The notes under the pieces: generated by a model
Seen by the model: only the letters and a program-made list of their open reading frames with translations
Told to the model about the DNA's origin: nothing
Database searches by the model: none
Shown here: one piece after another, positions 735 to 50,330 of the stretch
Layout: each line of letters opens with the position of its first letter
Position numbering within the stretch: the stretch's first letter is position 1
Assembly (NCBI GenBank): GCA_002633005.1
Contig: NMRA01000048.1
Location: forward strand, 501,745-561,210
Length of the DNA stretch: 59,466 nucleotides
Reading direction: 5' to 3'
Source of the DNA: Phoronis australis
Taxonomy: Eukaryota > Animalia > Phoronida
Program-made: the position numbers and the translations under genes

Positions 735-3700
735 ACGGCCGCAGTTTGGATATGTGTAGAAACCCACAAGACATGTTCCACATCAGTTCTGCCACACAAG
801 GATAACTGCAAACTGTTATCTACGTGTATCCAGTCATTAGCGACGAATGTCAAACTGTTCACTTTATGTAAGCTTCAGGACTTTTTTCAATTGATTAAAA
901 GACTACTCTACTTCAAATACGACAGTTTTTTCAATCGACTGATATTCTTGTTGTCAACACCCATCACTGCGCGCATTACCCGTTTCCCTTTCCCAAATTT
1001 CTGCTCGTTTTTATTTTTACTCGTGATGTCAAGTGGTCATGTTCAGTGCGTTGTTGCACTGAGAGACAAGCAAATATACAGTTGTTTTAAAGGCGAAGGC
1101 AACCTTTTTGCATGTCATTTTTAGCAAAAATAAGGGTCGTTGATTATCCCAGACATATTTTTTCACCTAATTACAGCTTTTCGTTATCTAATTAATTACT
1201 CGTTCTCTACTCCGGAAGTGAAGTTTTGGGAGGCAAGAATTTCACGCCAATTTCTTTTCATATAGTCCTACTATGAGAGCTGTCAAGTCAGTCATTGTTC
1301 TACCTCGGTTGTGATAAGTTCAGTCGTCGTTTGCTGTTGTTTACGAGTCAGTCAACATGCCACACTGTTTCTGCATACCGGGATGTACTCATTATTGCTC
1401 AAATCCTGTAAGCAGCCATGCTGCGATGTTGAGTAGTGGTAGTGAATACAGGCCCATTTCGACACCCAGTGAACAGGACAGTTCGTCATTCAATGAACAG
1501 ATCGGTGAGCCAAACTTTGATAAGTTTATTGTGGGCATGTCTAGAGTATTGGAGCTATTTAGAAGGTGCCAGATGTGTGGCAAAGGAGTCACACGATGGG
1601 ATGTAAGCAGTTTGTGTGCTCAGGTCACTATCCAGTGGGAATGTGTCGCGGGACACTCGGGCAAGTGAGACAGTTTCTCTGCCGTGAGACGATAATGAGT
1701 ACCCATCGGCTATTACGCATCTACAGTGTGGCATGGTGACTGACTCGAAAACAAAAGCAAACGACGACCGAACTTATCACAACCAAGATAGAACAATAAT
1801 TAACTCGGCAGCTCTCACAGTGAGACTGTATAAAAAGAATTGGCGCGAAATTCTTGCCTCCCAAAACGTCACTTCCGGAGTAAAAGGCGAGGAATTGTTT
1901 AAATTACCAAAAAGCTGTAATTAACTGAAAAATATGTCTGGGATAATCAACGAACCTTATTTTTGCTAGAAATGACATGAAAAAAGGTGTTGCCTTCGCC
2001 TTTAAATTATTTTCATTTTTTATGCTAGTCACTGTTGAGGCATTCCTTCGTCGTTTGGAAACCTTGTAATATTATTCCACTATTTTCATGACGCTTCATA
2101 TCCGGAACAACCAGGCACACAGCAACGCATCATCATACAACCAGGCACACAGCAACGCATCATCATACAACCAGGCACACAGCAACGCATCATCATACAA
2201 CCAGGCACACAGCAACGCATCATCATACAACCAGGCACACAGCAACGCATCATCATACAACCAGGCACACAGCAATGCATCATCATACAACAGACTGACA
2301 CACATGACATCGGCATAGGTCACTGGTCCAAATTATGTTTGCACATTTATTGACAATTGCACCTCTTGTTATAGCTGACTAAAGCATAGAAGCCATCTTG
2401 ACACACAGTGATCATTTGCAAACTACCAAAGCGATCCCAAAACAGTGGTAGCCCCTTCAAGTTTCATCTTTTTTCTTCAGATTAACGTATAATGTTGACC
2501 ATCCTGTTAAATGACTTCATTTGTGTTCAGTTTTGATGTAATTTTCTCCTGATTTTTATGCGGCTTTAATAAAACAAAGAAGTTCATTACGTATTCTATC
2601 AAAACATTTGTGGCAATTGCTGCATGTTTACTTGAAACAACATGCTGTAACCATTAAACCCATCACCTTTCAGGGTCTGATGGTTTATTAAGGTGTATTA
2701 CATCTGCACCATCTGATTGTCAAGTGAAGAGTGATGTGCACAAAGTTCCAGGGGTCAGGGAGGTTGTTGCCATGGTGTCATGCAGCAAGACACACCTTGC
2801 ATTTTGCGGATTAAAAACTGGAAAGGATTCGTCTGGTAAAAGTCAATTTTTTTTGCAACTTTGCTTCAAAATTCTCTCTTATGGTCACAGTTCTGAGGTT
2901 ATGTTTGGGATTTGATTTTAATTATTTATTTAATATTAAAAAACAAATCCCACATTGAGCTATTGGAATAAAGCAGAAATCACAACTTCGAATTAGCATT
3001 GATGACATTTCCCATTGAAACAATCATCAGTGTTTAAGAATGGGAACTTGCAGCTGTGAAGAATTAAAATAAAAACAAAGGGTTGCAGGCTTTCAGATGT
3101 GTCGCTAAATTTGGCTTTAATATGGTACTATTTGGGTTGTTTGCTTGATGATAAACTAGTTTCTTTCTTTTACACTTTACAGAAAGTGTTGTTATCTGGG
3201 ATACAAAGTTTGCCACATGTCAAGCAAGTTTACCATTGTCGACAAACGTTTCTGCATGTAGAAGAGTAAGTTTGTGTATCAGTAAAATTGTACTTGGTTA
3301 TACCAAAGTTCTGTTGGACATATGTTCAACATGAAATGATTGTTCACAACATTTCAATTATCTGGCCACAGATTTGTAGTCGGGATAACATATTATGCTT
3401 GCGAATAGTTCGCAGTCACAACATTTGTAAATATGAGATAATGAAAAATACTATAATCAACATCATGTTTGTCAGTAATGTCTTTCATAACATGTGAATA
3501 TTGTCAATTCCATGCCAGAACAGTGTTCTTCTGTCTATGCGTCATGACTGATAATTATGTGGTAATTGATTTTGTACAGAACAATTTTAGATCCAGTCTG
3601 AATGACTCTGACATTTAAAGCTGCATCTTGCTCTGTTTAGATGCTTAAAAACAAAATCGAATTAATCCTTTTACTCTCTTTAAATTGGTCTCTTAACATA

Positions 3701-28700: not shown

Positions 28701-31700
28701 TGGTATTGTTTGTGAGATATGGTGTTGTTTGTGAGATATGGTGTTGTTTGTGAGATATGGTGTTGTTTGTGAGATATGGTGTTGTTTGTGAGATATGGTG
28801 TTGCCAAGTTTGGATGTGTTTCTAGAATCCTACATACCCTTAATCAATGTTTTCACTTATCTGTGTCACAACTATGCAAATTTTGCTGTACTCCTATTGT
28901 AATAGTGACATACTTTTTTGCTTTTCATGTATGCCACAATTTTGACCAAACTTCATGCCAAAGAGTAAATAAATGGCATGAGCTTGCATGTGTGCTTTTA
29001 GGTTGGTCACATCCTACTTGCACAAATCAGTCCTAACCTTTTGTTTTGCAGTCCTGAAATCACTTTCAAGTAGCAGGGCTCAGTTTTGTAACATCAATAG
29101 GTGACAAGTTTTAAAATTGCCAAGAAAGCTGTGTGTTCATTGTTGTTTTGTTTGAGTGTTTCTGTTACTTTGTCAGGTCCTGAGGTAATTGAGCACACAA
29201 AAGAACAAATTAGCAACCAAANGTCACAACTATGCAAATTTTGCTGTACTCCTATTGTAATAGTGACATACTTTTTTGCTTTTCATGTATGCCACAATTT
29301 TGACCAAACTTCATGTCAAATAGTAAATAAATGGCATGAGCTTGCATGTGTGCTTTTAGGTTGGTCACATCCTACTTGCACAAATCAGTCCTAACCTTTT
29401 GTTTTGCAGTCCTGAAATCACTTTCAAGTAGCAGGGCTCAGTTTTGTAACATCAATAGGTGACAAGTTTTAAAATTGCCAAGAAAGCTGTGTGTTCATTG
29501 TTGTTTTGTTTGAGTGTTTCTGTTACTTTGTCAGGTCCTGAGGTAATTGAGCACACAAAAGAACAAATTAGCAACCAAAGAGCAAGGACTGAAAACATTG
29601 CGAAATATATACAGTCAGCTCAAGAGAGGGCATTGTATTTCAACAAAGGACATCCCATAACCAAGCCTGACATTGGCCCCAGTACTTCAATTCGTGAACC
29701 TTGGATCACAGAAAATGATGTTATCGGTGCTAAGGAAATTAATGATCTTGGTTTAAATGAGTATAATAATTATGATAGAGATCGTTATCGAGTGAAACCG
29801 CCTGTTCACCAGTATGCTTTGATTGGCGATGTTTTGAGGACAGGGATGGATTTCACTGGAAAAAGGTATACTCCTAGTGTTGGCTCTCGTAGTCGGACAT
29901 ATCGAAGGAGACAAACACCACCTACCAGTAGTTGTGCTGGTTATCAGGGTGGCATTGTATTGGATCAGACACCATCTCGAATAGAAGTGGCAGGAAAAGA
30001 AGTGCCAGAAAATATTAAGCACAAGTTTGGAACCAAAATATGTGCCCAAGTTTTGAAGGATAACAATAAAGTAATTGACACAATCAATGAACAAGATCGC
30101 TTGAAGCTGGCAGCCCATCGTGCTTATCACCGTCAAGAGATTCGCCAAATGCCATTGGTCGATCATCCAGACTATCGTGACCTTGGCAACAGTCTTCGCA
30201 GCAATATATTACCTGGATTTCACTTTCATAATCCTACTTTAGCAAAGGATACCTATACTCAGGCTGTGTTTGATAATCGCTTCCAAGATCCTGACAAGTT
30301 CAGATACCAAATAGACGAGCTTGGTACGTTATCATATTTTTTGTTTTTTGTGTTGCTAATCTGTCTTTTCAGTACTACAAACCTTAAAAAATTGACAGTT
30401 CTGTGGCCATGCATAATAATGTGAAAACTTTTATGAAGCAATTGGCAACTCATGTGACTGTTTGATTGTACTGGCATTTCATTGAATAAAGCTCTTTCAC
30501 AGCTAAATGGCAACATGAACATTGGTACATCATGACCAGTTGCTAAATTGCTTTTGGAGGGGGGCTGTTTGAGTTTAATATTATAACTTTTTACAGGTCT
30601 ACATGGAGACTTGCGGCTCCATGTAAGTTTTTGCGCAGGTCTACATTTAGACTTAATGTAAAAAACATTGCAGTGTTGCGACACTTTAGTGAAACAGGAC
30701 ACCCTGAAGTGTTGTTATTTTTTCAAACATTAATATTCCAAAACACTATTTTGAGTATTGGCATACTCATGGTCATGGGTCTAAGTGCTCGTGTGTATTC
30801 GCTATGTTTCATTGGTAAATTCTAGACATGTTTTTTTGGACATGGCTTACCCAACCAGTCTTCATCATAATTGAAAACACATCATCAATAGATGCCACAG
30901 CTTCAACTAATCTAATTAAAGGTAACATCTCACCAATTTTGGACAAAAATAATTGGCAACAAAAATTTTCAAGGTCTTGTAACGTCATTGTGAATGCCCA
31001 CAATTATTCAAGACTTGGTTTGGTGGCAGCTGTGGTACAAAACTTTAACATGGACAAGCATGTAATTTGGCACTATATATGTTGCATTGAAAAAATGATA
31101 AAACATAATTTCACTTGTCCGCCATATTGTGTACTAAATTTAAGACTTTACCTACCTTTTGGAAAAATTGTATTAGCTCAAGGCTTTCTTGTTTCATTTG
31201 ATCACCGTTAAAAACTACTGCTTGAAAATCTTTGTGAACTAAAAGTTTCTATTGGTGATGTGAAAGTTTGTTCAAAATTATTTTTTTAAAGTTTTGTTCA
31301 TTTTATGGAAGTCTTGAGGTTTAGTTGTGTTTTGTTATAGGCACTTGGGCTGAGCAAGATGTTTTGCGTGATCGAATGAAAAAAGCTTGGGTGGAATACA
31401 CAACTGAGCGACAAACCAAAAATGCTGTATAAGTTTTTGTAATGGTATGTTTTATGTCATGCTTCTGTTGTCTTGAATTTACTATAATTCCAATTTTGTT
31501 CTTACGTTGCTTGCTAATGTGTTGTTCCTTTTTGTTTTTGTGTTATAACTGTTAAAAAAAGTATGTGCCATTAATTTCCATATCCTTAAGGCCTTTCTTC
31601 AAATTTCAGTGAAATTGTTCTGTTACAAAATTATTTTTGTTTATGTGTTTTAAATACTTAATGCATAGTTAAGTGTTTGTCTCATTCCCGCCATTCTTCA

Positions 31701-35245: not shown

Positions 35246-36579
35246 AGGCGAAGGCAACCTTTTTTCATGTCATTTTTATCAAAAATGAGGTTCGTTGATT
35301 ATCCCAGAAATATTTTTCACTTATTTACTGCTTTTCGTAATTTAATTAAGTACTCGTCGTCTACTCCGTGAGTGACGTTTTGGGAGGCAAGAATTTCGCG
35401 CCAATTTCTTTTCATATAGTCTGACTGTGAGAGCAGTCGAGTCAGTCATTGTTCTACCTCGGTTGTGATAAGTTCGGTCTTCGTTTGCTTTTGCTTACGA
35501 GTCAGTCAACATGCCACGCTGTTGCTGCGTACTGGGGTGTACTCATTATCGTCTCACGTACAGAGGAAGAACTGTCCCACTTGCCCGAGTGTCCCGCAAC
35601 ACACTCCCACTGGAGGGTGATCTGAGCACCCAAACTGCTTAGATCCCGCCGTGTGACTCCCTCGCCCCACACCTGTCACCTTCTAAATAGCTCCAATAGA
35701 AGTCCACAATAAACTTATCAAACTTAGGCTCACCGATCTGTTCATTGGATGACGAACTGTCCTCTTCACTGGGTGTCGAACTGGGCCTGTATTCACTCCC
35801 ACTACTCAACATCGCTGCAGGGATGCTTACAGGCTCTGGGCTAGAGACAACAGCACAGGGCGAATCACTGCTAGTTCCCGGAATTGCACGCAATAGGGTA
35901 CATTCGGAGGCACGGGTGACAGTAGATGAAGTGCCCCAGTCACTGTATATAGTGGCCACAGCTCGCGAGGCTTCTCGCTTCAAAAACGCGCTTCTTGGAG
36001 TTGGCGACGGAGCATTGCCGGGAATCAACAGCGACGGTATGGTACCCTTCTTCAGGCGTTGTTTCGCAGGGACCTTCATCAATTCAGCGTACATATGTCT
36101 GTCGTAATCTGACGGCAGAAAATGCTTGCCACACACTCGGTAGCCCTCCACTGCTTTGTACGTTGCGTGGACGGGTAGCGCTGCGTTATTCACATGAACG
36201 AGCTAGCCAAGTACGGCGAAGTGTGTCATCCTTCGGAAAGCGACACAAGGTACCCAAAGCGCGTGTGAGACGATAATGAGTACATCCCGGCACGCAGCAA
36301 CAGCGTGGCATGTTGACTGACTTGTAAACAAAAGCAAACGACGACTGAACTTATCACAACCGAGGTAGAACAATGAGTGACTCGACAGCCCTCACAGTCA
36401 GACTATCATATGAAAAGAAATTGGCGCGAAACTCTTGCCTCCCAAAACGTCACTTCCGGAGTAGAAGACGAGAAATTAATCAAATTACGAAAAGCTGTAA
36501 TTAAGTGAAAAATGTGTCTGGGATAATCAACGAACCTTATGTTTGCTAAAAGTGACATCAAAAAAGATTGCCTTAGCCT
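35246..36579 (-). mobile_element. Kolobok-type element (longer relative of 1091-2001) with frameshifted THAP-transposase N-terminus
   Basis: Same TIRs AGGCGAAGGCAAC. The minus strand from ATG 36311 gives MPRCCCVPGC...RFPKDDTLRRTWL/..RVCGKHF...LKKGTIPSL (complete C2CH THAP with AVPT-like box), then EPKFDKFIV. The DDE core is absent. Confidence 0.8.
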
Positions 36580-43770: not shown

Positions 43771-45164
43771 GAGCACGAGAAAATATTGTGCAAAGTCCAT
43801 CATTTTTAGGCGCATCTCTATGATTAAAAAACGTGTGATCCAATTAATTTACAAGGCGACAAGGTAACTCGTTTCATCATGGAGACGTTATTCATAAAAA
43901 AGCCAAGATTTAATTTTCTCCTCTAGCCAACGTCCTTCTATGTGTAGGGGTAGCTTATATGTACTTTGATGCAGAAAACTTGACATCTATTTCCTCTGCT
44001 AGTGCTTCTGATAGTTGACGCTTACGTAATCCTTCATTTCCGTCGAAGCCGTTCTTGGCAATGTAGGTGGAAATGAAAATGTCAAACAAAAGACATACAG
44101 TTTACACATGTATATTGGTGATTTTGAGTAATTTATTACAGACTTGCCCTCATACACGGGTCACCGTAGATTCTTGTATACCAATCCGAAAGGATACACT
44201 TATTTCCATGGAAACGGTGAAGTCAAGGGCAAACTGTTAACACAGCAATCTTATTGCAACTGTGTGGAAAACTATGGATATTGAACGTAGCCTTCAACGC
44301 CAGATATCGATAGCGAGTAGACAGTAATCAAAGGAACAGCGCATAATTTTAATAAATCGAACCTATAAACATTAAATTATTGTTTATTACATACCATTTT
44401 CTCCGCATCAACTCATTTCGGTTAGCATTAAGATTAAATGCAAATACGCGATTGATTTTTCTTTTTTAAAGTGCCAAATGCACATCTGTATTTTAAAACA
44501 CCATAACATATTTTTGGACCAGAGTATTCACTCACGTAAACATACAGATAAAACGAAGAATAAATACAACAAGATAGGTATAAATAAAATAAAATAAAAC
44601 ACATCTAACAATAGGTAGTAAATAGACTTACACTTGAAAATGGTTGACCTGGTATACGCAAACATGACCATTTATGTTGCAAATGTATACTTTCCGTGAT
44701 TGCTAAGTATTCGGTCAATGGAAGTTTGAAGGAACATATTCAAGTTCCCTTTTTGTATCTGCGACATAAGATATATTAATTGATTGTTATTCAAAACATT
44801 AAGTACTTAGATTTGTCAACAAAATTATCCTACAAGTAAAGTCTTCAACTGAATCAAGCAAGTAACAGAGTTTCACATTGACCCGAAAAATGTTAAAACT
44901 AAAATTTACAACACTCATCCCTAAGGCCAAAAATGCATGCGGATTTTTTGATTGCTGTAATGAAAGCTTGAATTTCGAAAATGTGAGTCAACTAGCGTGA
45001 ATCTATCCTTTGATGCAAAATGGCGCACGAGCGTTTGGCTAATTAAAATGACAGAAACGTCCATGGAGACATGGCACTACATTCAAATTCAACATCAGTC
45101 ATAACATATTGCGATTAATCTTGAAATAAACACTTATACATTTGGGACATCATCTGAAGAGAGG

Positions 45165-45336
45165 CAATAATAAACACTGATTCAATTGGTAGACACGATA
45201 CCCAGTTCAATAATAAACACTGATTCAATTGGTAGACACGATACCCAGTTCAATAATAAACACTGATTCAATTGGTAGACACGATACCCAGTTCAATAAT
45301 AAACACTGATTCAATTGGTAGACACGATACCCAGTC
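45165..45336. repeat. 43-bp tandem repeat, 4 copies (3' UTR of the phosphoesterase gene)
   Basis: Unit CAATAATAAACACTGATTCAATTGGTAGACACGATACCCAGTT. Confidence 0.93.
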
Positions 45337-45361
45337 CATGAAAAACATCGATGCCACTCGA

Positions 45362-48300
45362 TTATTCAAGGTTTTCTAATTCGTCTTCCACCTCGGCCTG
45401 TCCTTCCGTCTTCAAAAAGACTGGCTTTTGTTTCTCAGAATTCGATTGTGACAACTGTTTGCAATCAAGCGTCACTCTTCCATTTCCTATGTTCTTCTTT
45501 GGAGGATGTATTGTTACTGTGGAAAACTGTAAAACACGAAAGTTATTTGCATACTTTATTCCCAGCCAAACATTTATGCCTCGTCGACAGGCCTAACCGT
45601 CATCACAGACGCACGAAATCTTTGTACGTGTACACACGTCATTCCGTTTAGGTCATTCACACAAAACGAGCTTATAAGCTCCGGGCACTGAACTTTAAGT
45701 CTCGGTCATAAAGCTTACCTAAGAAAAGAAATAAATCTTCTTATCACATATTCAACTAGTAAACTTTTTATTAGCCTGGGAGCTTTAAGTTAAGTATATG
45801 GCCTGGGGACCAAATTGTCTTTATGCATTGTCGGACTATGGGGAACAATTGGCTAAAACTACATATACGAGTACCCAATCGCTCAAGAAAAAGTTCTAAA
45901 AGTCATTTTTTTGAAAGTGTGCATATTGGGTAAAAATTGTCAGCCCAACAGATGCAACACTATTCACCTCTTCTCAAGAAATTACACATAATTTTTCGCC
46001 ATTATAGACCTACCTCTTTTTCATTAGTCCAAGAGCCACAGTTTACGTAAATAACATCATTTCCGTTGTTGGCTTTGTACTTGCGCAGTTGGCCACTGAC
46101 GTCATGAGCTAGGACGACTACATCTTCGTCGCACTGTTTTACAAACCAACAATAGTCTCCGGCGGTAGCTTTCATCATGTTAAGAACGTAATCCTCACCG
46201 TGCTGGAATAGATGCCAATTTCATGAGGGTGGACAGATTCTTCAAAATGCATCAAAGCCTAAAAATACTCTCAGTATAGTGTTTTGTTAACCCATTAGTT
46301 ACCGTTGAACAGATCTTTGAATAAAAAATCTTTGCATAAGATATTCACTCTGAAGGGTACAGCTAAAAAAATTCTTAAAAATCTCATTCAGTAAAAGTTG
46401 CCATTCCGAAATGCTCCGTGTGGAACGGGATCTTAAGAGATAACCAATTCGAGGTAATTTTACAACTTGTTTTACAACTGTATTTTAGACGACTGGGTGA
46501 ATACCTGTTCACACAAAAACTGTACGAGTGGATATGACGTCATGCTTCTAAGCGTGATATATTTGCCGTCATCCACGACACATTTTGTGTCAAGGTCGAG
46601 TTTCTGTCCTGGCATTGCTTTCGATAAAAGACATGTCAAGAATCTTTCTTGCACTTGAGGTACACTCAATGCTTTTACAAGATCACGCTCTATCGCTGGC
46701 CCGCATTCTTCCAGAAACGTAGCTGTGAAGTTCTGCAACAGTTTTTCCACTACACCCTCTTTGGCGCCATTAATCGAACACATTGCTCTTGATACGTAAT
46801 ATCCAATTGGTTTTTTGCACAATAGTTGATTTTTACTTTCAAGTGAATACGAAGTAAATAAATCCCACTCATGCCCATGAGAAAATCTAATGCGATACTC
46901 CTTCCCTTGATCTTGGATTCTATACACCAAAGTGCCTTGGATAAAAGTTACACTGTCGCCAAATAAGCGTTCAACATCCGACACGGCAACCTCGTGGTCA
47001 TGGTTACCACGTATGAAGTACACCTTGACTCCACATTCTCTCGATAGTTTTTGGATACAAGAGACAAAGTACTCGCATAATTTGTTCTTCCATTTCACAA
47101 GCGTCTCATTGGGTGTTTGAGCGGAAGCATCAAAAGTATCCAACCACATCTCAAGAATGTCACCCAGCAGAACTACCGTGTGAACTTGGTCAGTTGCCTT
47201 TGTCAGTAAGTCATCCAAAAACTCTCTAACATTAGCTTCTGTTCCAGCTGTTAATGGACGTCCAAAGTGTATTCCACCAAAAGCAAGGATGTCTCTTTTG
47301 TCGCAGTCAGCATCAAGATCAATGCTGACCTCCGTCACCTTTTCCAAGCAGCCATCAGATGGCAGAGTATATCCAGCCTCTTTCTTCCTGCGGGGCACCC
47401 ATTCCGCGACGTTTCCTTTGACAACACCCTCAGCATTAATATTTGCAGCATGCTTTTTATTTGTAATCGGTGAAACTTCTCTCGCCAACAAGTCCGAGAC
47501 GTCGTTTGAGCTGTTCGTGTCCCATTTTATATCGATTTCGGTGAAATATTCCGGAATTGCGGGAAATTCACTAGGGTTCGCTTTAATTCCCGTTTCCGGT
47601 TCCAGCTTTGTTAACGCGTTGTTAATACATTCACCTATTGTAACTGGTGTTTGTTCCTGGAAAAAAGGAACACGTGAATTATCAAAACGATAAAAAATCA
47701 ACCACCATCAACAACGAATGACGACTACTTAATCGAGCTGATAATCCTGAAACCGAACATAGCAGCAATAGCTTCACTGACACGTGCCACACAGATTTCC
47801 TGAAATAATTCATATTATCCGAAGTGTAAAACTGATCATTGTTGGAGAAAAGTTTGATAACATTAAGTTTACTCAGTGTTGGCCTGTCGAGTACCTTTAT
47901 GAATTATTATTTATGAGACTTTCGTGGAATTGATTGTTGTTTCCCAATGTATGGTTGCTGAGTTCTACATCAAGCCAGGGAAACAAAATCACATCGACAG
48001 GAAAACACAATCAACACCAGTGTGTTTACTCCGGTCTATTTTGCCAACCATACAAACATCTTGTGACATTATGTACTTTAAGTATAATGTCGAGAAATCA
48101 CGCCCAATATTTGCAGTAGCTAACACAATGCCAAGTCAACATCAAGTGATGACTCGCGCATACTTGAGCAAACACTAACATTTAAAGTCGTCCTCGTTCG
48201 TGAACAAACTACCTTTCAACTCGGATCTTTTGCAATCTATACATAGACGATAATAGAAATTTTTCTTCAAACACCTCAGTCTTAATTGAATAAGAAACAA

Positions 48301-50330
48301 TTAAACACGGCAATCTGTTTTTCTATTCATACTGTAAAAATCGATCGCATGCAGTTTCGGGACAACAAGCATGCATTTCATGAGTCCCGAATTATCGTGA
48401 GCATCGGTAGTATACAACTATAAGAATTGAGCTAATGAACACAGCGTGATCAATTTATGTACGGATTACAGAAAGGATTTCCTGACATAAACATGTGCGT
48501 CTTCACAGATGTGANAAAATGAAGAGAACGAACGTAGGTCTTGTAGATGACGAGGTAGGTGGCTGAATGAGAGACCACGTTGAACAGAACAAAGGAAATA
48601 TGGGCGTCCAATCAGGAGTTGCGTAGAGAAACGTATGAATACAAAAGTAGGCCCTAGGGCTATAAAAAAGATGAGTAATGCAAAATAAACCCTAAGGACT
48701 GGTCTCAAAATAAAGAGACAATTGTCAAAATAATTACGATAAATGCATTTAACAAGTTAAATTTAATTTATCAAATACTATTCTAATCCATCAACCCTCA
48801 CTGAGAAGTATTTAATCGCTGCAATCATTGAGAAAAATGGGCTGGGTTGCTTAAAACTTCAAAAGTTATCTGAACTCGCATGTCGAAGCATACCTAGCAA
48901 GAGTTTAAAGTCATGTGACTGGCTATTATTACATTTTAGCCTGGTATTCTTTGAGCATAATTTTTGAAACAGTTGTTTAATACCTATTGTGAAAAATACA
49001 ATGTGCAATAATAACAGTTAAGCTAATAAAGCGCTACAAAGCATAATATCTAGGCGTTGAGAACGTTTAAAGTTGCCAAATGCTTGTTTTTTACCATTTT
49101 GGTTGATTTAATAGCCGGTACGGAAAATACACTAGTGGGATTTTAAGAGTTTCCACTAAATTTTGATTTTTTCATCAAACGGGTCTATTGTTACTTGACA
49201 AAGTAAACTTTGACAGAAGTAACCGACAAATCTGGGATACCAATTTTTATCGTTATTAGAGGTACACGCGGCATTGGGGTACTTCTTGGACCTCTATGAA
49301 ACTTCCATGTATTACATACAAACATCTCGTTTAAATTTGTTTTTTAATCGTCATAGACTTTAAGTGCCAGAAAACTCGTGAATGAAATGTAATTGTTTAT
49401 TACCTGACTCAGATACCTGACGCAGAATGTTATGTTTAGTACCATAAAATAATTTCTAGACACTTTTTAAAAAACACGGGAATAACCCTAAAGGAACAAT
49501 ACCATCGGAGCCAAAAATCTGACACACCAATTTCTCATTGCCACAGGAAACTATCATTGTAAAAAATTATCATCAAAGAAAAGTGCTTTTACAAAAACAA
49601 CAATCACGTGATATTTTGGCACACAAGTTAGGGTCGATTTTAAAGGATTCACGAGATACGTTTGTAGCTTTGTGAGTTGAAAATGCTTGAATATGCGAAT
49701 GAAATTTCTCAACCAATTGTCAATAACCATTTAAGTTTTACGAGGAAATGCTACGAGCTTAAAATAATCACCTTGGACAAGTCGGTCTATTCACAAAATC
49801 TCCACCTTTAGAAACAGTTCCTTCATGGCAAAGAACGAGAGAAGTTACGTACTTGAAGACTATAAGTTAGGTACGCATAACGCTTCGAGCTTGCCTCAGG
49901 CCCTTGTTCACATGACTGTCATGTGAACAAGGGCTTGAGCTGCATGCTCGGAACGCTATGCGTACCTAACTTATAGTCTTCCACTAAGAAACTTCTCTCG
50001 TTTTTTATCATCATCACGGAACACAACGATGAATTATGAACAGTTCTGTCATATAGCAGAGAAAATGAACCATCACATGATATCGAAGTGAACGTTTAAC
50101 TTCGAAAGCAATAGGACTTCAGCCTCATCGGTGTTCAGTCAAGCACTCATAGCATTATGACAGTATTACACTCTACACATATTATAACCATGCTTTCTTA
50201 CCTTCTTTTGTTGAGACTTGTTGTTGTTGTTGCTTTTGTTGTTACTGTTGTACTTTGCGGTGCTGCTTACTGTAGGCTGTTTTTTGGGTGTCGAGTTAGA
50301 CGAGGCCGGCTTAGAGCTTCCGCTTCCCAT
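45362..50330 (-). CDS. LpxH/YbbF-like calcineurin-type metallophosphoesterase with N-myristoylation motif (~544 aa)
   Basis: Exons 50330-50202 (MGSGSSK...), 47656-46505, 46202-46014, 45526-45362, all phase-0 GT-AG. Motifs: AFGGIHFG, VLLGDILEMW, YFIRGNHD, FSHGHEWD, VVVLAHDV, YVNCGSW. The N at 48515 lies in intron 1, so small exons could be missing. Confidence 0.82.
49830..50005. repeat. ~175-bp hairpin / palindromic MITE
   Basis: AACGAGAGAAGTT...AAGACTATAAGTTAGGTACGCATA...CCCTTGTTCACATGAC-T-GTCATGTGAACAAGGG...TATGCGTACCTAACTTATAGTCTT...AACTTCTCTCGTT. Confidence 0.85.

What the first reader, a model, noticed from the sequence alone, without database searches (positions are those of the whole stretch)
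45362..50330. Intron-bearing animal gene encoding a prokaryote-type LpxH/YbbF-like phosphoesterase with a myristoylation anchor
Seen: a four-exon spliced gene. Most of the catalytic domain sits in one 1152-bp exon, and a separate first exon adds MGSGSSK plus a Ser/Asn/Lys linker. Established: the spacing GD(IL)xxW...YxxGNHD...HG(H)xxD...YxNxGSW is the signature of the LpxH/YbbF branch of calcineurin-like metallophosphoesterases, which is mainly bacterial/archaeal (LpxH acts in lipid A synthesis), and MGxxxSK is a canonical N-myristoylation signal. Inference: a horizontally acquired enzyme domesticated by gain of introns and a membrane anchor.
Basis: partly seen in the sequence, partly recalled or inferred. 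Interest (0 to 1): 0.8.

Follow-up and report, generated by a model that had tools for sequence, protein, structure and literature searches.

The report
Ancient LpxH-fold membrane enzyme in animals
This spliced, transcribed animal gene belongs to an enzyme family I found no study of, shared by corals, bryozoans, a brachiopod and amphioxus, whose members are predicted to fold like the bacterial lipid A enzyme LpxH and likely act on a membrane lipid; it is an old inheritance rather than a recent bacterial import, and this copy lacks two metal-binding residues, so it is likely weak or inactive.

Summary
In detail: four exons on the minus strand give 544 aa. RNA reads confirm two of three junctions; the join of the MGSGSSK exon was not seen at about 1x depth. 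The protein is a calcineurin-like metallophosphoesterase. Models of two homologues match LpxH best, but it is not LpxH: GNHD instead of GNRD, 27.5 bits against a cut-off of 134, and a 142-aa cap against about 65 aa. Orthologues occur in bryozoans, a brachiopod, amphioxus and corals, mostly with the same Gly2/Ser6 start, and bryozoan and amphioxus records break at the same intron position. Trees reject nesting of this gene among bacteria (p-AU 0.00017). Coral proteins and an unnamed sister sequence carry the domain fused behind a cholesterol-oxidase-like enzyme and an alpha/beta hydrolase, which points to lipid processing. Protist and bacterial relatives share the long cap, so a very old transfer stays open. 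Verdict: an old, apparently unstudied animal family, this copy a likely pseudoenzyme; recent domestication is not supported.

The parts
50202..50330 (-). Exon 1 (43 aa): MGSGSSK start (Gly2, Ser6, Lys7; predicted N-myristoylation) and a Ser/Asn/Lys-rich linker
   Evidence: about 1x RNA depth in 3 of 3 RNA runs; joint to exon 2 not listed
47657..50201 (-). Intron 1, 2545 nt, GT-AG, phase 0; holds a multi-copy repeat near 48516-49020
   Evidence: splice sites from sequence only
46505..47656 (-). Exon 2 (384 aa): spacer, motifs I-IV of the metallophosphoesterase core and most of the helical cap
   Evidence: RNA cover that ends in the bin holding 47656
47267..47278 (-). Motif I, degenerate: G-G-I-H; Gly171 (codon GGA) stands where the metal-1 Asp lies in intact homologues
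   Evidence: reads here are all at least 99% alike
46997..47008 (-). Motif III, GNHD (His262 where LpxH has Arg)
46203..46504 (-). Intron 2, 302 nt; position matched by breaks in bryozoan, amphioxus and unnamed homologue records
   Evidence: joint in 5 reads
46014..46202 (-). Exon 3 (63 aa): end of the cap, degenerate motif V (A-H-D-V; Val462 for the metal-1 His), NxGSW motif
45527..46013 (-). Intron 3, 487 nt
   Evidence: joint in 7 reads
45362..45526 (-). Exon 4 (54 aa plus stop): last beta strands and acidic tail
44900..45361 (-). Transcribed 3' UTR (end not mapped), with four perfect 43-bp tandem copies at 45165-45335

Best explanation
This is a spliced, transcribed animal gene for a predicted myristoylated, membrane-bound member of a long-cap metallophosphoesterase family that is predicted to fold like LpxH, was likely inherited from the cnidarian-bilaterian ancestor, and likely cleaves a phosphate bond of a membrane lipid, while this copy lacks two metal-1 ligands and so likely binds rather than cleaves. 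Shown: the gene model, two of three joints, the motif changes, the homologues and their domain layouts. Inferred mechanism: myristate on Gly2 plus nearby lysines holds the protein on the cytosolic face of a membrane. The 140-aa helical cap, placed where LpxH has its acyl-chain-binding cap, grips a lipid. Intact members hydrolyse its phospho(di)ester or pyrophosphate bond at a two-metal centre. Inferred history: the ancestral animal gene was a three-enzyme fusion (GMC or cholesterol-oxidase-like, alpha/beta hydrolase, phosphoesterase) as in corals. The bilaterian-type genes kept the anchor exon and the phosphoesterase and lost the middle, then duplicated and several times lost metal ligands.
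For: Gene and RNA. Named orthologues: Watersipora, Lingula, Branchiostoma, Bugula, Oculina, Stylophora, Porites. Animals plus unnamed sister rows form one branch: 92, 99, 100/100. AU rejects this gene with long-cap bacteria (p 0.00017) or with short LpxH-type proteins (p 0.017), and animals with bacteria to the exclusion of protist-type rows (p 0.019). 10 of 22 aligned homologues are cut records that leave the alignment at the exon 2-3 boundary, 8 of these 10 continuing with Val, as a GT donor would give. Gly2 plus Ser/Thr6 in 12 of 19 homologues, 4 of them coral fusions. Fold: LpxH is first in Foldseek and VIA-align (Z 17.9, rmsd 3.8, 219 aligned; Z 18.7, rmsd 3.8, 222 aligned; cap-less MJ0936 aligns 162-163). 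The LpxH cap binds acyl chains, and D8 and H197 are first-metal ligands (PMC6286764, passages); loss of the motif I Asp nearly abolishes LpxG activity (PMC4807358, passages). Lipid-type partners: GMC oxidoreductase plus Abhydrolase_1 fusion in corals and P0029; C1 domain in Pelomyxa P0068; a bacterial GMC-hydrolase 43% identical to the coral one is followed by a PhoD phosphoesterase gene. Degenerate motifs recur in other animal copies (P0012, P0014, P0135, P0005, P0010).
Against: No substrate or activity was measured; the lipid reading rests on fold, cap position and fusion partners. The cap has no detectable sequence likeness to the LpxH cap (hhalign 2.8%). The window protein itself was not folded, only the Lingula and amphioxus homologues. 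Five of seven metal ligands and the motif III His are kept, and Asp461 lies beside the lost His, so some activity may remain. The exon 1-2 joint was not seen. The window protein lacks the Cys at positions 3-5 that 8 bilaterian-type homologues have. Stand-alone amphioxus rows branch outside corals at 87, which needs two fissions or a tree error. No remnant of the hydrolase was found in the stand-alone spacers (hhalign 0.2%). Pelomyxa rows group with bacteria (89; 93/90), so the eukaryotic members are not one clean vertical clade. Neighbours of the bacterial long-cap genes show no shared pathway.
Confidence: 0.47

Rival explanations
1. Very old horizontal transfer: a bacterial long-cap phosphoesterase, perhaps with the oxidase-hydrolase module, entered the stem of animals or a unicellular ancestor and gained introns and the anchor there. 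This concerns origin only and fits with the mechanism above.
For: The long cap is shared with scattered bacteria (hhalign 97.7%; 21 of the 23 loci are long forms, from SAR324, Thermodesulfobacteriota, Myxococcota, Acidobacteriota, Spirochaetota, Nitrospirota and others). Under LG+G4 with 106 rows the eukaryote-type rows arise inside the bacterial ones at support 84-86. The coral oxidase-hydrolase part is 43% identical to a bacterial protein over residues 10-1171. No named hit came from vertebrates, insects, nematodes, fungi or plants.
Against: Under the mixture model the long-cap bacteria form their own branch (93) and the base is open. Animals with bacteria but without protist-type rows is rejected (p 0.019). 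Named protists of two supergroups carry the family (Chilomastix, Pelomyxa). Most hits are unnamed, so absences are not shown.
Confidence: 0.35
2. The window protein is still an active enzyme with a rewired site: Asp461 or water replaces a lost ligand, or it works with one metal.
For: His173, Asp209, Asn261, His262, His303 and His460 are kept. The frame is intact and transcribed. Its branch (0.47-0.64) is no longer than those of intact orthologues (0.45-0.75), whereas the wholly degenerate copies sit on an extra long stem.
Against: Both lost residues are ligands of the same metal, the one that holds the likely attacking water in LpxH (PMC6286764, passages). Asp-to-Ala at motif I left LpxG near background (PMC4807358, passages).
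Confidence: 0.25
3. The family acts on a soluble or protein substrate (nucleotide, sugar phosphate, phosphoprotein) at the membrane, not on a lipid.
For: GNHD is the general superfamily motif (PMC3087551, passages). The next structural neighbours are nucleases and phosphodiesterases. Bacterial members lie beside unrelated genes. The cap is no more hydrophobic by composition than any other group tested (0.39-0.40).
Against: LpxH stands about 3 Z above all other folds in two models. The fusion partners are of lipid type.
Confidence: 0.2
4. One reading: a recent, lineage-specific transfer of a prokaryotic LpxH/YbbF gene, domesticated in this animal.
For: One large exon holds most of the domain. 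LpxH is the best NCBIfam and fold match. CDS GC3 (0.43) is a little above two neighbouring ORFs (0.33, 0.39).
Against: Animal orthologues score 146-273 bits against at most 52 for bacteria. The intron position and anchor are shared across phyla. p-AU 0.00017 and 0.017.
Confidence: 0.02

Closest known systems
LpxH, UDP-2,3-diacylglucosamine hydrolase (TIGR01854, NF003743; PDB 5B49, 6PIB)
   Same: Calcineurin-like core, a helical insertion between motifs IV and V, and the best structural match for two homologue models.
   Different: GNHD not GNRD; cap about 140 aa not about 65 and not alignable by sequence; 17-28 bits against cut-offs of 190 and 134; N-terminal anchor; two metal-1 ligands lost in this copy; animals are not known to make lipid A (recalled).
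LpxH2 and LpxG (GNHD-type relatives of LpxH; PMC3087551, PMC4807358, PMC6286764, passages)
   Same: GNHD motif III, five-block motif in intact homologues, an insertion at a similar place; LpxG is membrane-associated.
   Different: Short LpxH-type proteins form a separate branch (98-100). LpxG has a transmembrane helix. LpxG and named LpxH2 sequences were not in my trees.
Unnamed bacterial 350-400 aa long-cap metallophosphoesterases (Atlas clusters led by Thermodesulfobacteriota; loci)
   Same: Same cap length and an alignable cap (hhalign 97.7%); TM 0.71-0.75 to the Lingula model.
   Different: At most 52 bits to the window domain; no anchor; all motifs intact; no conserved neighbours.
Coral GMC oxidoreductase (cholesterol-oxidase-like) + alpha/beta hydrolase + phosphoesterase fusions (Oculina, Stylophora, Porites; uncharacterised)
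   Same: Orthologous phosphoesterase domain (228-238 bits); Gly2/Ser6 start in 4 of 8 checked.
   Different: About 1,100 further residues of oxidase and hydrolase, none found in this 59-kb window; metal ligands intact in 6 of 7 checked.
Vps29 and DNA polymerase B subunits (metallophosphoesterase folds used without catalysis; their inactivity is recalled)
   Same: Same fold (Z 13.5-15.9); precedent for loss of metal ligands.
   Different: No long cap of this kind and no close kinship shown.

Membership tests
Calcineurin-like metallophosphoesterase superfamily (PF00149) | Pfam gathering score | tested here: met
   28.4 bits against 21.5
Calcineurin-like metallophosphoesterase superfamily (PF00149) | Fold | tested here: met
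   Tested on homologue models (Lingula, amphioxus), Z 17.9 and 18.7 to 5B49; the window protein was not folded
Active binuclear metallophosphoesterase | All seven metal ligands (D, H, D, N, H, H, H) | tested here: not met
   5 of 7: Gly171 for Asp and Val462 for His; all seven present in P0001, P0002, P0006, P0015, P0134 and 6 of 7 coral proteins checked
LpxH | Arg in motif III (GNRD) | tested here: not met
   GNHD in the window protein, GNRD in E. coli LpxH; feature from PMC6286764 and PMC3087551 passages
LpxH | NCBIfam cut-offs NF003743 (134) and TIGR01854 (190.35) | tested here: not met
   27.5 and 17.3 bits for exon 2; 20-28 for whole homologues, 363-389 for the E. coli control
LpxH | The LpxH helical cap (about 65 aa) | tested here: not met
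   A helical insertion lies at the same place but is 142 aa and aligns at only 2.8% probability; partial structural overlap is suggested by 219-222 aligned residues
LpxH | Mn-dependent hydrolysis of UDP-diacylglucosamine | not testable with these tools
   needs an assay
Broad YbbF/LpxH-like group (CDD cd07398, recalled) | Best match to that domain model | not testable with these tools
   No CDD library here; LpxH models are the best NCBIfam hits but far below cut-off
N-myristoylated proteins | Gly2 with Ser/Thr6, Lys7 favoured (consensus recalled; two-signal model in PMC13690689 passages) | tested here: met
   MGSGSSK; Gly2 plus Ser/Thr6 in 12 of 19 homologues
N-myristoylated proteins | Exon 1 is the true N-terminus of the mRNA | tested here: inconclusive
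   Exon 1 transcribed, strong phase-0 donor, upstream stop, matching homologue starts; joint not listed
N-myristoylated proteins | Myristate attached, membrane location | not testable with these tools
   needs labelling
Gene acquired from prokaryotes by this lineage | Nested among prokaryotic sequences | tested here: not met
   p-AU 0.00017 and 0.017
Gene acquired from prokaryotes before the animal radiation | Eukaryotic branch nested in bacteria under a stable root | tested here: inconclusive
   nested at 84-86; not nested

The most novel reading that the evidence does not exclude
Early animals carried a membrane-anchored three-enzyme lipid-processing protein (cholesterol-oxidase-like flavoenzyme, cysteine hydrolase, LpxH-fold phosphoesterase) of ultimately bacterial stock, in which this phosphoesterase fills the slot that PhoD fills in bacteria. 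Bilaterian invertebrates split off the phosphoesterase and repeatedly turned copies into lipid-binding pseudoenzymes. These could sense or disarm lipid A-type or other bacterial phospholipids in the cytosol of marine invertebrates.
Probability: 0.12. Interest if true: 0.75.

Novelty: new variant of a known kind. Interest (0 to 1): 0.42.

Why it matters
It outlines a family of animal membrane enzymes and pseudoenzymes with an LpxH-like fold and a distinct long cap, present from corals to amphioxus. The coral fusion ties it to an unnamed oxidase-hydrolase-phosphoesterase lipid pathway that bacteria appear to run with PhoD. Intact and degenerate copies occur in one species (Watersipora), so enzyme and pseudoenzyme can be compared directly. 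I found no paper on it in five searches aimed at it or; the library lacks most subscription journals, so this is not proof. As a case of recent gene transfer it is not of interest.

Tried and rejected
No whole genome is held, so intact paralogues or a separate oxidase-hydrolase gene in this species could not be sought. No RNA holder was listed by index; the runs came by species label. A suspected frameshift at the weak exon 3 acceptor was rejected: reads join 46202 to 46505 and the bryozoan orthologue aligns without a gap. A sequence search of solved structures with exon 2 gave 0 hits; the profile gave only weak SbcD and LpxH hits. The word-based search with a 19-row alignment returned 4 proteins and added little. 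Neighbours of the bacterial loci showed no shared context (23 loci clustered; 28 ORFs scanned). TIGR01854 found nothing in 5 of 5 genomes that carry the long-cap gene (draft genomes, no proof of absence). tblastn of 5 fused proteins found no oxidase or hydrolase match in the window (best other hit E 0.76). No likeness between stand-alone spacers and the coral hydrolase end. The PhoD gene beside the bacterial oxidase-hydrolase is only a distant superfamily relative (hhalign 9.6%). The Atlas could not place P0029 by taxon and gave nothing for the TEX33-like ORF. The careful mixture tree did not finish; one search shows the quick tree. Earlier findings by sequence, by words and in this genome returned nothing on this family. 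Paper search gave nothing that I read.
Full report
Observation. The region holds four minus-strand exons, 50330-50202, 47656-46505, 46202-46014 and 45526-45362. They join in phase 0 at GT-AG sites into one frame of 544 aa. The first ATG follows an in-frame stop and reads MGSGSSK; it is one of two Met-Gly-x-x-x-Ser/Thr starts on that strand upstream of exon 2, the other lying 6 kb further off. Three RNA runs with the same species label, 18-19% of each read, show the exon 2-3 joint in 5 reads and the exon 3-4 joint in 7. All 43 reads laid on 46000-47800 are at least 99% alike and of one orientation, and cover ends at the exon 2 acceptor. Exon 1 is covered at about 1x in each RNA run, but its joint was not listed; the tool needs 3 reads and says reads are cut at the AAC-type repeat in exon 1. 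That joint therefore rests on sequence and on homologues. A TEX33-like ORF at 29459-30421 (59 bits, cut-off 27) fits an animal genome.

What the protein is. Exon 2 passes the Pfam Metallophos cut-off. LpxH models are its best NCBIfam hits but at 27.5 and 17.3 bits against cut-offs of 134 and 190; E. coli LpxH scores 363 and 389. Motif III is GNHD, whereas LpxH has Arg there (PMC6286764 and PMC3087551, passages seen). I folded two homologues, not the window protein: Lingula P0002 (pLDDT 84) and amphioxus P0015 (pLDDT 90). Both match LpxH first: Foldseek ranks 1-24 as listed are all LpxH; VIA-align gives Z 17.9 and 18.7 against 14.8 and 15.9 for the next rows. The insertion between motifs IV and V is 136-145 aa in 15 of 15 animal rows, 135-158 in 10 of 12 protist-type rows, 146-175 in 15 of 15 long bacterial rows and 63-67 in 10 of 10 short LpxH-type rows. 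The animal cap aligns to the protist-type (99.2%) and long bacterial caps (97.7%) but not to the short cap (2.8%). So it works like an LpxH-type capped phosphoesterase but belongs to a separate long-cap family.

The damaged site. Motif I reads G-G-I-H and motif V A-H-D-V. In LpxH the matching residues, D8 and H197, both bind the first manganese (PMC6286764, passages). Removing the motif I Asp left LpxG near background (PMC4807358, passages). The Gly codon is two bases away from an Asp codon, and the few reads there (depth about 1 and 2 in two runs) are at least 99% alike, so an assembly error is unlikely (inference). The other five ligands and the motif III His are kept. Intact sites occur in P0001, P0002, P0006, P0015, P0134 and most corals; heavily degenerate sites in P0012, P0014, P0135, P0018, P0019, P0022, P0005, P0132 and P0010. 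Watersipora has one of each.

Relatives. The scan of 1.84 billion representatives gave 130 hits, 30 at E 1e-10 or better. Of 30 clusters looked up, 10 named an organism: Lingula, Branchiostoma (4), Watersipora, Bugula, Chilomastix and Pelomyxa (2). One search added a second Watersipora protein and B. lanceolatum. A search for longer proteins with fragment P0011 returned 11 hits. Eight are 1,488-1,677-aa proteins with GMC oxidoreductase and hydrolase families, six of them named from the corals Oculina, Stylophora and Porites (domains confirmed for three). Unnamed P0029 has the same three domains, and P0027 the end of the hydrolase plus the phosphoesterase. Gly2 with Ser/Thr6 is present in 12 of 19 homologues checked; Stylophora starts MGSGTSK. 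Ten of 22 aligned homologues are cut records that leave the alignment at the exon 2-3 boundary, among them a Bugula-cluster and two amphioxus records. I read this as read-through into a shared intron. Coral-type fragments break at other places inside what is exon 2 here, so the large exon is not a sign of recent arrival and may reflect intron loss (inference). The bacterial long-cap genes come from several phyla and share no neighbours.

Trees. A first tree kept 109 of 141 proteins (domain span of 270 aa or more). I then chose by hand 106, 68 and 42 rows. The labels 'protist-type' and 'bacterial-type' for unnamed rows are mine, from appearance and tree position; only 3 of 33 protist-type rows have an organism name. 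Animals form one branch (87, 86, 92/78) and join the unnamed P0017 and P0027/P0029 (92, 99, 100/100). The window protein groups with the bryozoan and brachiopod rows, which fits another agent's untested note that the genome is a mollusc. AU tests under LG+G4, set up after I had seen the earlier trees, reject this gene with long-cap bacteria (p 0.00017), with short LpxH-type rows (p 0.017), and animals with bacteria without the protist-type rows (p 0.019). Against a simple vertical story: Pelomyxa sides with bacteria, and the eukaryote-type rows arise inside bacteria at 84-86. The deep root, and so the direction of any old transfer, is unresolved.

How it most likely works. Predicted myristate and nearby lysines would hold the protein on a cytosolic membrane face (two-signal model, PMC13690689, two passages). 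The cap would grip a lipid as the LpxH cap does. Intact members would cut its phosphate bond at two metals. Three hints favour a lipid: the fold, the coral fusion to a cholesterol-oxidase-like enzyme and a hydrolase, and a C1 domain on a Pelomyxa member. Two earlier AI notes described a bacterial oxidase-hydrolase travelling with PhoD. I checked one case: the Stylophora protein matches 8 of 201 genomes, best at 43% identity over residues 10-1171, and the next gene there is PhoD, only distantly related to this family. Of three loci read only that one showed PhoD within 1.5 kb. A phosphoesterase of another family thus fills the third place in animals, which suggests a shared chemical job (inference from one locus). 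The fusion occurs in corals and in sister rows, so fission in bilaterian-type genes is the simpler history. The amphioxus position (87), the lack of a hydrolase remnant and the fact that I searched for long forms only with a coral-type query weaken this. This copy is more likely a lipid-binding pseudoenzyme than a normal enzyme, though a rewired site is a fair rival.

Known or new. Searches for a description of the family or of the coral fusion listed nothing on topic (listings only, none of those papers read). It is a new variant within a known superfamily. Interest 0.42: an apparently unstudied, testable invertebrate family with a telling fusion, but no substrate and no resolved origin.

Noticed in passing
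window 48516-49020: Multi-copy repeat in intron 1: RNA depth up to about 280 on both strands, many differing letters and loose ends, so reads come from other copies of an abundantly transcribed element.
   Followed up: no
window 49856-49982: Perfect 25-bp inverted repeat arms about 80 bp apart in intron 1, read directly from the sequence; MITE-like; a few RNA reads with differences.
   Followed up: no
window 45165-45335: Four perfect 43-bp tandem copies in the transcribed 3' UTR.
   Followed up: partly
window 29459-30421 (+): 321-aa ORF with a TEX33 family match (59 bits).
   Followed up: partly
window 35642-36202 (-) and 1318-1665 (+): Two ORFs that share a short stretch; the first has a weak THAP match (E 0.0078, under cut-off); likely transposon remnants.
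   Followed up: no
proteins P0068, P0105, P0108, P0107, P0096, P0110: The long-cap phosphoesterase is fused to varied partners elsewhere: C1 domain (Pelomyxa), multicopper oxidase, caspase-like domain, periplasmic binding protein, tectonin, reverse transcriptase fragment.
   Followed up: partly
L040:18-6426: Bacterial run of an M4 peptidase, a GMC oxidase-hydrolase fusion 43% identical to the coral protein, and a PhoD gene.
   Followed up: partly
proteins P0014, P0135, P0012, P0018, P0019, P0022: A branch of wholly degenerate copies (99-100 support), including Watersipora and Bugula proteins, three of which start with Met-Gly-Cys: a conserved pseudoenzyme subfamily.
   Followed up: partly
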